DNA of 64,000 nt. Origin: Felis catus. Lineage: Eukaryota. The notes beneath the pieces are model-generated. The model was given only the letters and a program-made list of their open reading frames with translations. It made no database searches and was not told the DNA's origin. The stretch lies in the NCBI RefSeq assembly GCF_018350175.1, contig NC_058382.1, positions 49,602,001 to 49,666,000 of the forward strand, written 5' to 3'. Below are positions 34,828-38,737 of this stretch, one piece after another. Position 1 is the stretch's first letter. The number at the start of each line of letters is the position of its first letter. The translations under genes and the position numbers were made by a program.

Positions 34828-37800
34828 ATGGCCCTTCTCCCGGTTGTCCTTGGCTTCCTCCTCTTTGGCAGCAGTTCTGGTGAGTGCAAGGTTCCGGTGG
34901 GCCCGGCAGCCCCGGACCAAGCCTCTCCCACTCCCCGGCCCCCACCGCCAGAAGCTGGGAACCGAGGACCAAGTCCACACGCGTCTAACCGCCCGCGGGG
35001 GCCGGCCCCCCGCCCACCCTTCTCAGCCTCTCTGGGCGCCTCTCCTCGGCTCCCCACTCCTCCTCCCCCTGGAGGTCCGTCGGGCCCCTCAGACTCAACC
35101 GGACAGGCTGGACCTGCCTCGTTTTGGCCTTGCCCACCCGCTCAAAAGCCGGGGTTCGTCCGGGCTCCTCCACACCTGCCCCTGAGCCGTAGGAGCTCTG
35201 CCTCAAGAATGTCTCCCACGCCCATCCCTTTGGCCCCGCCCCCCGGTCCTCTGTAAGTGGGCAGCCTCTCGGGTCTATGCTGCCCTGAGCGGGGCAACTC
35301 TCTGACCCCAGCCTGCCCCTGCTGCAGACCCAGGGGCCCTGGGAACAACAGCGACTCCAGCAGGACATCCCGGCCCCCACGCCCCGGGACCCTGGGGTCA
35401 GCAGGGGAGGGACACTCCTCTCAGGACACACAGTGGACACCCAGCCTTCGGGCTCTAGGCCCCGCCCAACTCGCGATGCCCTCAACCTCAAGGACCCTCC
35501 TCCACAAGGACACCTGGGGCAGCTGCTGGCTGGGTGACAAGGGGCCGGCTGCCCTGCACTGGCCAAAGCTCTGGGTGCTAGGTTGCCACCTAGGTTCCAG
35601 AGGCCTGGAAGTGCCAGGCTCTATCCCTGGCCCCCTTGGGACACCATCCGCTGACCAGCTGCCGTGTCCCTGCCCCCAGGCTGTGGGGTCCCTGCCATCC
35701 ACCCTGAGCTGAGTGGCCTGTCCCGGATCGTCAATGGAGAGGATGCGGTCCCCAGCTCCTGGCCCTGGCAGGTGTCCCTGCAGGTGAGAGGGAAGCTGAG
35801 GAGAGGTGGGTTAGACAGAGAGGGGTCAGGCGTGAGGGGGAAGGCTGACTGTCTCACCTCTCTCCCCAGACTCGCTCCGGCTTCCACTTCTGCGGGGGCT
35901 CCCTCATCAGCCAGCACTGGGTCGTCACTGCTGCCCACTGCAGGGTCAGGTGAGGCCTGCGTGGGGGCAGTGGGGACGCCCTGGCTGTCAGGGAATGACG
36001 GTCACTCCTTGCCCTTTCCCACCCCTGCCCGGCCACCCACTAGGCTTCCAGGGAATGAAGCCTGGCGGGAAGGGTCTGAGATAGATGGCAGGTGGGGACA
36101 AAGCTGCTGCTATCCGCCCCGCCCCCCAGAGAAAATCCCCACCCTCATGCCCCCCACCACCTCAGGCCCCAGCCTGTTCCACGAGAGCTGGTCTAGTCCT
36201 GTGCCTCCACCTTATAGACGGGGCAACTGAGGCCCAGAGGTCCCCGTGGGAGTGAGGGGCCCAGAAAGGGCTTCCCTCACCTGGGTACCCTCTGCTGCCT
36301 CCTCTCTCTCCAGGAAGAGCCACCGTGTGGTGGCTGGGGTGTCTGATCACGGCTCTGACGAGGAGGCTGTCCAGGTGTTGAGGATCACTGAGGTACCGCA
36401 GGCAGGCCGGCTGAGGAGGGTGGGGCGGTAAGGCCATGGCAGGGCTGCCCCTGGGCGCCAGGGATGGGTGAGGACCGTGGCGGGCAGGGTGTGTGGGCAA
36501 AGAGGACCCCGGCCAGTCGGCTCAGTCCTCACCCACCAAAGCCTTCTTCCCTTCTTTCCCAAGTAAGAAGACTCCTATTCAAACACTGAAGTTTGGCTCA
36601 TTGTAGAAAAGCACAAAAATAGAAAAAACTAAATATCACCAACGTGTCAAGGGCCATTTTCCCACCAGTTTCCAGAGATTTTGTCCGTGCGGCCCCATCT
36701 GTGTTCGCTCTCAACAAGGGCCCCTTGGCACTGAGCCCTCTCCTGGCCTGAGGTCCCTCCCATCCGTGAGATCGGCCATCCTCCCGTGAGGACTGCCCAG
36801 CCCCCATGGCGTCTCCACAGGTGTTTGAATACCCACTGTGGGACCAGGTTTCCGGCCGCAACGACATCGCCCTGCTGAAGCTGGCCACACCGGCCCTGCT
36901 CTCAACAACCGCGTCCCCCGTCTGCCTGCCCAGTGCCAACACCAGCTTCCCTGCCGGCTCCCTCTGCGCCACCACCGGCTGGGGCAAGACCCGGTATAAC
37001 TGTGAGTGTCCTTGCAGGGGCTTTTCAGAAGGGAGACTCATTCGGCTTTTATGGTCTAAATTCCAAGCACACAAATTCCAAGTCGTATATCTTTCATTTT
37101 TTCTTTTTAAACATTTTTAAAAATGTTTATTTTTGAGACAGAGGGTGAGTGGGGGAGGGGCAGAGAGCGAGGGAGACACAGAATCCTTAGCAGGCCCAGG
37201 CTCTGAGCTGTCAGCACAGAGCCCGATGTGGGGCTCAAACCCATGAACCGTGAGCTCATGACCTGAGCCGAAGTCGGATGCTTAACTGACTGAGCCCTTC
37301 AGGCCCTCCTTTCCGTTTCTTTACTTAAAACCCTCTTAATGAAAGAATGAAAGAATAAAGATGAGCTTAAATACCGCACACTTGAAGACGAAGTTGCTGA
37401 AGAAATGCCCAAGTACCAGCAGGTGGCACTCTCACTACGTTGCAACGAGGTCCCCACGGTCCGGTTTCCAGCCTGGACTCCTCTCCAGACTTGAGGCGGG
37501 CGCTTGTGTCAAGCTCGCCGCCGTGAAGTCTGGGCCGGGAGTCAGATGTCCTGGTGTGGTTCGGGGCCCTGGGAGTCCGGCTGGGTCTCCCCTCCCCCGG
37601 CTGCTCCCTCCGCTGACGATCTTCCTCCGGGGCCCCGGGTGCTCCTGCCCAGGCCCCGGCTCACCCTCTGGTCCTTGACCGGGATGGAGGCGGCCAGGAA
37701 AGGGCAGCAGGAGGACGGTGCTCCCCCATCTGCTACCCAGAGCGGCGGGTCCCCAGCAGGGGCCCCGTGAAAAGGACGTCAGCCCCCTTCCCCGGAGGGG

Positions 37801-38737
37801 AGGCAGTGCCCCCCGCCCACCACACGGGCTGCCAGGGCACGGCTCGCGTGAACAGCGGTGCTGGAAGCCATGTCACCACTGCCTGGTGTGGAATCGGAGA
37901 GGAAGGGGTCCCGCAGGGACTGTTAGGTCTGAGGGAAGGTGGGGAGCTCCGTTTCTGAGGTCATGGTGATGGGGAAGGACTGGGAGCAGGCAGGGGGGAG
38001 GCAGGGTCTCCTCCACCCCGGGGTGGGCCGGCTGGGTGAGGGCTCCTGACCTCCGCTCCCCCCCCCGCCCCCGCCCCCTGTGTCCCTCCAGCCAACAAGA
38101 CCCCCGACAAGCTGCAGCAGGCGGCCCTGCCCCTCCTGTCCAACGCCGACTGCAAGAAGTTCTGGGGCAGCAAGATCACGGACGTGATGATCTGCGCCGG
38201 GGCCAGTGGCGTCTCGTCCTGCATGGTAAGGCCTGGCCCCGCCCCCCCGCCGGCCCCGCCCCCGCCCCGCCCCCGCGCGGGCCAGGGGGCTGCTCCCTTC
38301 TGCCGCGTCCGCTCCACCCCTCTGGGCGGCAGTGGCGTTGGGGGCCCCCACGCCAGCCAGCCGGGGGAGAGTGTCAGCCACGTGCCCCAGGCCCACCAGG
38401 AGTAGGCGACAGAGCTGGGCCTGCCACGTGGCCCCGATCGGAGAGCCTCCTGCCCAGTCTCTGCCCCCACACGTGTCATTTGTCTGCACAGAACCTGCGC
38501 GGGGGCAGGTCAGGGCACACCGGGGCCCCGGCAGCCCGCTTCAGGCTTGTAAACAGGTCCTTTCTCCTCCTGCAGGGCGACTCTGGCGGCCCCCTGGTCT
38601 GCCAGAAGGACGGAGCCTGGACCCTGGTGGGCATCGTGTCCTGGGGCAGCGACTGGTGTAACCCGTTCTCACCGGGGGTGTACACCCGTGTCACCAAGTT
38701 TATTTCCTGGGTTCTCGGGGTTCTGGAGGCCAATTGA
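34828..38737 (+). CDS. Third, divergent chymotrypsinogen B-like precursor (gene 3), 7 exons, 263 aa
   Basis: Exons 34828-34879, 35680-35783, 35870-35949, 36314-36392, 36821-37001, 38092-38225, 38576-38737 (52/104/80/79/181/134/162 nt), GT-AG, no stops or frameshifts. [37 protein letters not shown], His57/Asp102/Ser195 and all 10 mature-chain cysteines kept. TATA-like ATATAA 34775-34780, AATAAA 38778-38783. Confidence 0.9.
37120..37308 (-). mobile_element. CanSINE in gene 3 intron 5
   Basis: Reverse-complemented body and head ending ~37308. Confidence 0.85.
37354..38651 (+). repeat. Inverted near-identical duplicate, copy B (gene 3 intron 5 to exon 7)
   Basis: Partner of 12352-13638. Differences seen by eye are a few substitutions and length changes in G/C runs. 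Confidence 0.95.

What the first reader, a model, noticed from the sequence alone, without database searches (positions are those of the whole stretch)
34828..38737. A third, intact and divergent chymotrypsinogen gene between CTRB1 and BCAR1
Seen: a complete 7-exon gene with the family's exon sizes, GT-AG sites, TATA and polyA signals. It encodes [263 protein letters not shown]. Known: human has only CTRB2 and CTRB1 here and mouse has one Ctrb1. Inference: the unrelated signal peptide and dissimilar introns 1-4 indicate an old paralogue, probably an active but uncharacterised secreted protease. It may already exist as an automated 'chymotrypsinogen B-like' LOC model.
Basis: partly seen in the sequence, partly recalled or inferred. 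Interest (0 to 1): 0.8.

Follow-up and report, generated by a model that had tools for sequence, protein, structure and literature searches.

The report
Third chymotrypsinogen gene in cat
The cat genome carries an intact third chymotrypsinogen gene next to the two classical ones; it is conserved in carnivores, hoofed mammals, whales, pangolin and aardvark, already sits in databases as an automatic gene model, and appears never to have been studied as an enzyme.

Summary
Window 34828-38737 (+) holds a 7-exon, 263-codon chymotrypsinogen gene ("gene C"). All splice sites are GT-AG, and the exon sizes match the two other chymotrypsinogen genes in the window.

- **Already annotated.** Its product is letter-for-letter P0168, RefSeq XP_023101930.1 "chymotrypsinogen B [Felis catus]". 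It is therefore not a new sequence.
- **A distinct lineage.** Gene C belongs to a third group ("clade C": 15 of 61 tree rows, support 100/99). The group is found in Carnivora, pangolin, Perissodactyla, Cetartiodactyla and one aardvark. No primate, rodent, bat, xenarthran or other afrotherian member was listed. Two seal copies look broken.
- **Functional residues.** The activation site, catalytic triad, ten cysteines and a Gly226 (A-type) pocket are intact.
- **Clade-specific residues.** These cluster at positions 35/37, 61-62, 70/71, 90-94 and 222/223. An N127 glycosylation sequon is present in 12 of 15 clade C rows.
- **Mosaic structure.** A roughly 1.3-kb tract (intron 5 to mid exon 7) is about 99% identical to the inverted B-type gene 22 kb away. 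Exon 6 shows the same homogenisation in five of the five species sets where such a partner was available.
- **Open points.** Expression could not be tested here, and eight literature searches found no characterisation.

Verdict: a real, conserved, probably functional zymogen. It is a new member of a known kind and of moderate interest.

The parts
34628..34654 (+). PTF1-like two-part motif (CACCTG, 15 nt, TTCCCA) 200 nt before the ATG; possible acinar-cell enhancer site
   Evidence: 3 matches in 64 kb against 0.85 expected; gene A has CAGCTG-N5-TTCCCA at -246 and gene B has none. The consensus and its spacing rule are recalled, not tested.
34728..34780 (+). Proximal promoter: GATAA at 34728-34732 and TATA-like AATATAA at 34774-34780, alignable with gene B's promoter
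   Evidence: function is inferred.
34828..34879 (+). Exon 1: start codon and signal peptide (18 residues with the first 2 nt of exon 2). It is clade-specific and only 56% nt-identical to exon 1 of genes A and B.
35680..35783 (+). Exon 2: Cys1, activation peptide and the Arg15-Ile16 activation site
35870..35949 (+). Exon 3: Cys42, His57, Cys58
36314..36392 (+). Exon 4: strongly clade-specific (65-67% nt identity to genes A and B); residues 62, 70, 71 and 84
36821..37001 (+). Exon 5: Asp102, Cys122, Cys136, the clade-specific 90-94 loop and the N127 sequon
   Evidence: (Pfam Trypsin E 2.6e-11)
37354..38651 (+). Gene-conversion tract shared with gene A (window 13638-12352, opposite strand): 3' part of intron 5, exon 6, intron 6 and the first 76 nt of exon 7
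   Evidence: 10 mismatches and 23 gap columns in 1275 aligned columns (counted over 37372-38640). Both ends are sharp..
38092..38225 (+). Exon 6: Cys168, Cys182, Ser189, Cys191. It is 99% nt-identical to gene A exon 6.
38576..38737 (+). Exon 7: Asp194, Ser195, Cys201, Ser214, Gly216, Cys220, Gly226 and the stop. From 38652 onward it is clade-specific (residues 218-245).
   Evidence: (Pfam Trypsin E 3.7e-12)
38778..38783 (+). Polyadenylation signal AATAAA
31395..34314 (+). Neighbour gene B: intact 7-exon, A/'2'-type chymotrypsinogen (Gly226)
12266..16846 (-). Gene A: intact 7-exon, B-type chymotrypsinogen (Ala226) and partner in the conversion tract
40127..40948 (-). Open frame holding the CAS_C domain of the downstream CAS-family (BCAR1-like) gene

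Best explanation
Gene C is a functional member of a third, old lineage of the chymotrypsinogen A/B family, called clade C here. It arose by tandem duplication at the chymotrypsinogen-BCAR1 locus no later than the common ancestor of Laurasiatheria and aardvark. It has since been kept under purifying selection in many orders and lost or broken in others.

Inferred working: an 18-residue signal peptide sends the product into the secretory pathway. The zymogen is activated by trypsin cleavage at Arg15-Ile16. The propeptide stays tethered through the Cys1-Cys122 disulfide. His57/Asp102/Ser195 carry out catalysis. A Ser189/Gly216/Gly226 pocket gives chymotrypsin-type (A-type) P1 specificity.

Clade-fixed changes may tune subsite preference, inhibitor binding or stability. 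They lie on the prime side (D35T, T37S, T62K), in the 70-71 and 90-94 loops, and in the pocket-wall loop (T222P, S223F). Most members also carry an N127 glycan sequon.

The gene is a mosaic. The exon 6 to early exon 7 region, which holds the S1 pocket and Ser195, is repeatedly overwritten by conversion with the B-type paralogue. Exons 1-5 and the 3' half of exon 7 evolve on their own.

Shown here: gene structure, residues, orthologues, the clade and the conversion tract. Inferred: secretion, activation, pancreatic expression, specificity and glycosylation.
For: Structure: 7 exons, all GT-AG, with exon sizes identical to the two paralogues. Identity to RefSeq XP_023101930.1 / P0168 over 263 of 263 residues.

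Family: gapless alignment of residues 19-263 to bovine chymotrypsinogen A chains (1acb_E and 33 further entries), E 2.5e-108. R15, I16, H57, D102, S189, D194, S195, S214, G216, G226 and all ten cysteines are present.

Clade: 15 of 61 rows form one clade with support 100/99, recovered in 100% of 200 bootstrap trees. On exon 4-5 columns alone the support is 97.

Constraint: outside the tract, cat gene C is 147-148 of 175 identical to the whale, rhino and fox orthologues, but only 116-120 of 175 identical to the cat's own paralogues. Four felid orthologues differ by 1 residue each of 263, and the same protein is listed for Felis and Panthera. Cat-hyena differences are 14 of 245 for gene C against 17 of 245 for the A-type gene. 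Paralogue dN/dS is 0.27-0.37 in exons 2-5.

Promoter: alignable with gene B, with a TATA-like box, GATAA and a PTF1-like motif. Gene C has its own polyA signal, and gene B ends at its own polyA signal 450 nt upstream.
Against: The gene is dispensable in some lineages. No primate, rodent, bat, xenarthran or other afrotherian member appeared among the best 120 rows of two searches. Two seal models look broken: P0097 is flagged LOW QUALITY and carries changes at conserved positions, and P0031 has frame-shifted stretches. Felid, hyena and meerkat copies carry Asp at position 218 (precursor 236). In passages of PMC11937528 this residue is described as a negative determinant of activity in human CTRB1. 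The pre-placental-radiation age rests on a single aardvark model (P0094).
Confidence: 0.75

Rival explanations
1. The gene is functional but is not an ordinary adult pancreatic digestive enzyme. It would be expressed at another stage, for example around birth, or in another tissue, with a specialised role.
For: The signal-peptide exon is strongly derived and conserved within the clade. Passages of PMC7467380 report a giant panda 'chymotrypsinogen B-like' gene (ENSAMEG00000005540) whose pancreatic mRNA peaks at birth and falls in adults. Whether that gene is the clade C orthologue could not be checked.
Against: The proximal promoter is alignable with that of the neighbouring classical gene and carries a PTF1-like motif. 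Nothing in the sequence points to another tissue. The panda gene may be the other 'B-like' model (P0067).
Confidence: 0.15
2. The gene is a silent relic whose frame is kept open only because conversion from the active B-type gene keeps repairing it.
For: A 1.3-kb tract is about 99% identical to gene A. Seal copies are decaying. The lineage has been lost in many mammals.
Against: The tract covers only codons 166-235. Exons 1-5 and the end of exon 7 are not converted (56-87% nt identity). They nevertheless stay open and keep 18 clade-fixed residues across orders. Conservation outside the tract is 84-85% between orders against 66-69% to the paralogues.
Confidence: 0.04
3. On origin only: clade C is much older than placentals and is orthologous to the sauropsid/amphibian 'chymotrypsinogen A-like' group. 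Conversion would pull it into the mammalian cluster.
For: Clade C shares states with that group where classical placental genes differ: H91, L114, P120, R145 and partly A104. In a quick tree on exon 4-5 columns, clade C fell outside a group (support 90) holding tuatara, newt, platypus and all classical mammalian genes.
Against: The AU tests decide nothing. The tree with all mammalian rows together was 19.3 lnL units better than the free quick tree (p-AU 0.843). The tree with clade C plus the sauropsid group was 10.9 units better (p-AU 0.761). The mammal-only origin therefore fits at least as well. The full-length careful tree nests clade C among placental B-type genes.
Confidence: 0.08

Closest known systems
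Chymotrypsinogen A / '2'-type (bovine chymotrypsinogen A, PDB 1acb and others; window gene B)
   Same: 245-residue zymogen aligned without gaps. Same triad, five disulfides, Arg15-Ile16 site and Gly226 pocket. Same 7-exon structure, and it is the adjacent tandem gene.
   Different: 163 of 245 residues identical to the bovine A model P0199 and 180 of 245 to cat gene B. It forms a separate clade. It has 18 clade-fixed substitutions, a derived signal peptide and the N127 sequon.
Chymotrypsinogen B-type (human CTRB1/CTRB2, mouse CTRB1, bovine B; window gene A)
   Same: Same locus and same fold. Exon 6 and early exon 7 are virtually identical to gene A through conversion (69 of 70 residues).
   Different: Gly226 in place of the Ala226 that defines B-type (passages of PMC11937528). 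Outside the tract 116 of 175 residues are identical to gene A. Not in the B-type group in the tree, apart from weakly supported deeper nesting.
CTRL and CTRC (the other pancreatic chymotrypsins named for human and mouse in PMC11937528)
   Same: S1A pancreatic zymogens with chymotrypsin-like pockets.
   Different: A bird CTRL (P0082) served as the outgroup and sits on a branch of about 1.8 changes per site. CTRC was not compared here.

Membership tests
S1A (chymotrypsin-fold) serine proteases, Pfam PF00089 | Match to the Trypsin domain profile | tested here: met
   Exon 5 scored E 2.6e-11 and exon 7 scored E 3.7e-12 against PF00089. Full-length orthologues carry PF00089.
S1A (chymotrypsin-fold) serine proteases, Pfam PF00089 | Catalytic triad His57/Asp102/Ser195, with Asp194 and Ser214 | tested here: met
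   numbered through the gapless alignment to bovine chymotrypsinogen A.
Chymotrypsinogen A/B family | Trypsin-activated zymogen (Arg15-Ile16) with the propeptide tethered by Cys1-Cys122 and five disulfides | tested here: met
   R15, I16 and cysteines at 1, 42, 58, 122, 136, 168, 182, 191, 201 and 220. Actual cleavage and disulfide pairing were not tested.
Chymotrypsinogen A/B family | Chymotrypsin-type S1 pocket (Ser189, Gly216, residue 226 Gly or Ala) | tested here: met
   S189, G216, G226. G244 (= 226) is invariant in the 9-sequence clade C alignment.
Chymotrypsinogen A/B family | Seven-exon gene at the locus next to BCAR1 | tested here: met
B-type chymotrypsinogen (CTRB orthology group) | Ala226 (precursor 244) | tested here: not met
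   Gly226 in gene C and Ala226 in gene A. The criterion comes from passages of PMC11937528.
B-type chymotrypsinogen (CTRB orthology group) | Groups with B-type genes of other species rather than forming its own clade | tested here: not met
   Clade C is separate with 100/99 support. Its nesting near B-type genes has support of 19-37 only, and exon 6 conversion biases it that way.
A/'2'-type chymotrypsinogen orthology group | Groups with chymotrypsinogen A models (hippo A, rabbit A, dolphin '2') | tested here: not met
   That group (support 99/98) contains window gene B, not gene C.
Expressed pancreatic zymogen | Spliced mRNA or protein in the pancreas | tested here: inconclusive
Only promoter resemblance is available.

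The most novel reading that the evidence does not exclude
Placental mammals ancestrally had three chymotrypsinogen lineages at this locus: A-type, B-type and this 'C-type'. The C-type was lost in primates and rodents, which would explain why biochemistry centred on human and mouse never met it. It would be a functionally distinct enzyme with altered prime-side and pocket-wall loops and an N-glycan, possibly with stage-specific (perinatal) expression. Its catalytic exon would be kept in step with the B-type gene by recurrent conversion in independent lineages.
Probability: 0.3. Interest if true: 0.55.

Novelty: new member of a known kind. Interest (0 to 1): 0.35.

Why it matters
Cats, dogs, pigs and cattle are used as models, or are veterinary patients, for pancreatitis and exocrine insufficiency. 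Chymotrypsins protect the pancreas by degrading trypsinogen (passages of PMC11937528). These species carry an extra conserved chymotrypsinogen that human and mouse appear to lack, so their protease repertoire, assays and genetics would not map one-to-one onto the human CTRB1/CTRB2/CTRC/CTRL scheme. Database names for this lineage ('B', 'B-like', '2-like', 'A') are inconsistent and hide it. The exon-6 mosaic is a clean natural example of recurrent, tract-limited concerted evolution between diverged paralogues.

Tried and rejected
1. **RNA evidence.** The look-up of sequencing runs on exon 7 plus the 3'UTR listed no RNA holder; all 24 rows are coded, and their kind is guessed or unknown. No reads or contigs were laid, so expression remains untested.

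2. **Short database proteins as transcript evidence.** P0029, P0032 and P0034 are read-throughs of exon 5 into genomic introns, not spliced transcripts.

3. **Deep age of the clade.** The exon 4-5 tree hinted at a pre-mammalian origin. The AU tests could not tell the hypotheses apart, and the constrained trees beat the free quick search, so that topology is unreliable.

4. **Literature.** Eight full-text searches were run. The terms were 'chymotrypsinogen B-like', 'CTRB3', CTRB1/CTRB2 with paralog/evolution/mammals, 'chymotrypsinogen 2-like', duplication/conversion terms, six accession numbers, and phrases such as 'third/novel/new chymotrypsinogen'. None turned up a paper on this lineage. One search was swamped by 'chymotrypsin d...' prefix matches and is uninformative. 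Subscription journals and supplements were not searched.

5. **Earlier findings of the scan.** Three look-ups found nothing relevant.

6. **dN/dS across orthologues.** This was not possible because no mammalian orthologue DNA is reachable with these tools. Only paralogue comparisons within the window were made.

7. **Mole paralogues P0056 and P0066.** They are sister to clade C (98/94), but they have classical signal peptides and long branches. They were not counted as clade C.
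Full report
**Observation**

The region 34828-38737 on the + strand holds seven exons of 52, 104, 80, 79, 181, 134 and 162 nt. Each intron starts with GT and ends with AG. The joined frame is 792 nt, giving 263 codons and a TGA stop. My first exon boundaries were off by one base at several junctions and were corrected.

The window holds two more chymotrypsinogen genes with exactly the same exon sizes, and both are intact:
- Gene A, minus strand, 12266-16846.
- Gene B, plus strand, 31395-34314. Its stop lies 514 nt before gene C's ATG.

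Gene B has its own AATAAA signals at 34363 and 34371. Gene C has one at 38778, and gene A has one at 12228. Gene C's promoter has no canonical TATAAA. It has AATATAA at -54, matching TATAA at -53 in gene B, and a shared GATAA a little further upstream.

Downstream on the minus strand lie open frames with the CAS_C, Serine_rich and SH3 domains of a CAS-family gene.

**Identity**

The product equals P0168 over all 263 residues. That sequence is on record as RefSeq XP_023101930.1 'chymotrypsinogen B [Felis catus]'. The same protein is also listed for Panthera species. Gene A's mature chain equals the Felis catus entry P0121 and differs at two residues from the Lynx canadensis entry. The window is therefore felid, most simply domestic cat.

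**A third lineage**

A search with exon 5 alone found proteins 75-98% identical in many groups: felids, dog, bears, panda, horse, donkey, rhino, sperm whale, dolphins, hippo, camel, pig and peccary. Identity then dropped to 70% or less (82 proteins passed among 106 candidates).

A profile of nine such proteins was searched next (1557 proteins passed among 8000 scored, best 120 listed). These proteins again ranked on top, and the search added otters, sheep, musk deer, a pangolin fusion model and one aardvark model. All carry the same derived signal peptide and the same diagnostic residues.

I chose 61 full-length or cleanly trimmed rows by eye. I left out obviously mis-spliced models such as P0004-6, P0008-12, P0017-20, P0023-24, P0031, P0033 and P0036. 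The Weddell seal model P0097 dropped out because it lacks the mature-start motif.

In the careful tree of these rows, the 15 clade C rows form one clade with support 100/99, recovered in 100% of 200 bootstrap trees. The bootstrap had not fully settled (correlation 0.983). The same tree shows:
- Gene B sits in a 99/98 group with the hippo and rabbit chymotrypsinogen A models and dolphin chymotrypsinogen 2.
- Gene A sits with dog, human CTRB2 and chimp CTRB.

This matches the residue-226 rule quoted in passages of PMC11937528, where Gly marks A-type and Ala marks B-type. Gene B has Gly, gene A has Ala, and gene C has Gly.

A search with the aardvark protein gave clade C proteins as all its best single-domain hits (423-452 bits; sheep 420). 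The best classical gene scored 421 bits. No other afrotherian clade C protein appeared. No primate, rodent, bat, xenarthran, shrew or elephant member was listed.

Two seal models look broken:
- P0097 is flagged LOW QUALITY and has changes at conserved positions.
- P0031 has shifted frames.

**Constraint**

- Outside the converted tract, cat gene C shares 147-148 of 175 residues with the whale, rhino and fox orthologues and 131 of 175 with aardvark. It shares only 116-120 of 175 with the cat's own genes A and B.
- Tiger, bobcat, Canada lynx and fishing cat each differ from the window protein at one residue of 263.
- Cat and hyena differ at 14 of 245 mature positions in gene C, against 17 of 245 in the A-type gene.
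- Paralogue dN/dS in exons 2-5 is 0.27-0.37.

Codon tests across orthologues could not be run because no orthologue DNA was reachable.

**Functional anatomy**

The mature chain aligns without a gap to bovine chymotrypsinogen A (E 2.5e-108), so classical numbering applies. Arg15-Ile16, His57, Asp102, Ser189, Asp194, Ser195, Ser214, Gly216, Gly226 and all ten cysteines are present.

I compared 15 clade C rows with 29 classical placental rows. Eighteen positions are fixed differently, each at 80% or more on both sides: D35T, T37S, T62K, E70V, F71S, K84R, K90E, N91H, K93L, T104A, F114L, A120P, K145R, T222P, S223F, L234F, I241V and A243E.

From recalled structural knowledge, 35/37 and 61-62 border the prime-side subsites, 90-94 leads into the 99 loop, and 222-223 lie in the loop that walls the S1 pocket. 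That these changes shift specificity or inhibitor binding is inference.

An N-x-S sequon at residue 127 is present in 12 of 15 clade C rows. It is absent in sheep, musk deer and aardvark. None of the other 46 rows has a sequon at that position.

Felid, hyena and meerkat copies carry Asp218. Passages of PMC11937528 describe this residue as lowering activity in human CTRB1.

**Mosaic by conversion**

Per-exon nucleotide identity of gene C to gene A is 0.56, 0.87, 0.85, 0.65, 0.67, 0.99 and 0.80. BLASTN found no similarity in introns 1, 3 and 4.

A tract at 37354-38651 matches gene A at 13638-12352 on the opposite strand. It has 10 mismatches and two indels (23 gap columns) in 1275 aligned columns, counted over 37372-38640, and both ends are sharp. 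The tract covers codons 166-235, which include Ser189 and Ser195.

The same pattern shows at protein level elsewhere:

| Comparison | Exon 6 (of 45 residues) | Residues 1-147 |
|---|---|---|
| Clade C vs same-lineage B-type or '2-like' paralogue (cat, jackal, dolphins, warthog, donkey) | 43-44 identical | 93-110 identical (all paralogue comparisons) |
| Clade C orthologues between orders | 31-40 identical | 109-130 identical |

Cat and jackal, both carnivores, share 44 of 45 residues in exon 6. The dolphin comparison pairs proteins from different delphinid species. Hippo, goat/buffalo and pangolin comparisons with the partners I had (mostly A-type, plus a buffalo B-type for goat) gave 31-38 of 45.

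Conversion of this exon has therefore recurred in several lineages. The direction of transfer and the reason for the fixed tract are unexplained.

**Expression**

Expression is untested. The proximal promoter aligns with gene B's. A CACCTG-N15-TTCCCA motif lies 200 nt before the ATG. The pattern CACCTG-N(3-27)-TTCCCA has 3 matches in the window against 0.85 expected by chance. A relaxed form (CAGCTG-N5-TTCCCA) lies at -246 in gene A, and gene B has none. The PTF1 consensus is recalled, and I chose the pattern after seeing the sequence, so this is only a lead.

Passages of PMC7467380 report a panda 'chymotrypsinogen B-like' gene whose pancreatic mRNA peaks at birth. I could not establish which panda gene that is.

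**Comparison, novelty and verdict**

Gene C works like, and by every sequence criterion is, a member of the chymotrypsinogen A/B family. It is neither the B-type nor the A-type orthologue. It belongs to a third lineage that databases name inconsistently. Eight searches of the open literature held here found no description of it.

The sequence is already public, and the kind of protein is among the best known in biochemistry. What is new is modest: recognition of a separate conserved lineage absent from the human and mouse lists, its fixed substitutions near the substrate sites, and the recurrent exon-6 conversion. I score interest at 0.35.

Noticed in passing
window 12266-16846 (-) and 31395-34314 (+): The two classical genes are not a CTRB2/CTRB1-like recent pair. 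Gene A is B-type (Ala226) and gene B is A/'2'-type (Gly226). They are 86% nt-identical in coding sequence with dS 0.37, and they fall in different, well-supported groups of the tree.
   Followed up: partly
window 16795-16846 / 14843-14946 (-), gene A exon 1-2 junction: The codon spanning the exon 1-2 junction of gene A reads Glu just before Cys1, where genes B and C and most relatives have Gly. The Felis catus database entry P0121 shows the same Glu. Glu is an unusual residue for the -1 position of a signal-peptide cleavage site.
   Followed up: no
window about 37118-37310 (gene C intron 5) and about 13870-13650 (gene A intron 5): A carnivore-type tRNA-derived SINE (identified from memory, not with a repeat library) lies just upstream of the conversion tract. 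It aligns at 62-85% with the matching part of gene A's intron 5. This suggests an older conversion or a shared insertion before the recent 99% tract.
   Followed up: partly
proteins P0051 (Ursus americanus) and P0067 (Ailuropoda melanoleuca), not in the window: The bear and panda B-type models read Tyr where Cys58 should be. The panda model also has Ser where Gly216 should be. The B-type gene may be decaying in ursids while their clade C copy looks intact.
   Followed up: no
proteins P0097 (Weddell seal) and P0031 (elephant seal): The clade C copies of two phocid seals carry changes at conserved positions, an insertion and frame-shifted stretches. This suggests pseudogenisation in seals.
   Followed up: partly
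proteins P0007 and P0179 (Lynx canadensis models): Some database models join the signal-peptide exon of the upstream A-type gene to exons 2-7 of clade C. Whether this reflects read-through transcripts or a modelling artefact is unknown.
   Followed up: no
cluster 5 (goat, sheep, reindeer accessions): Consecutive accession numbers pair a chymotrypsinogen A model with a clade C model in goat, sheep and reindeer. This is consistent with the same A-type then C-type gene order as in the window. The 90% cluster also mixes the two lineages, so cluster sizes overstate clade C membership.
   Followed up: no
window 38226-38290 (gene C intron 6 start) and 38040-38075: Very GC-rich CCCCGCCCC-type runs flank exon 6. 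The only two indels inside the conversion tract fall in these runs.
   Followed up: no
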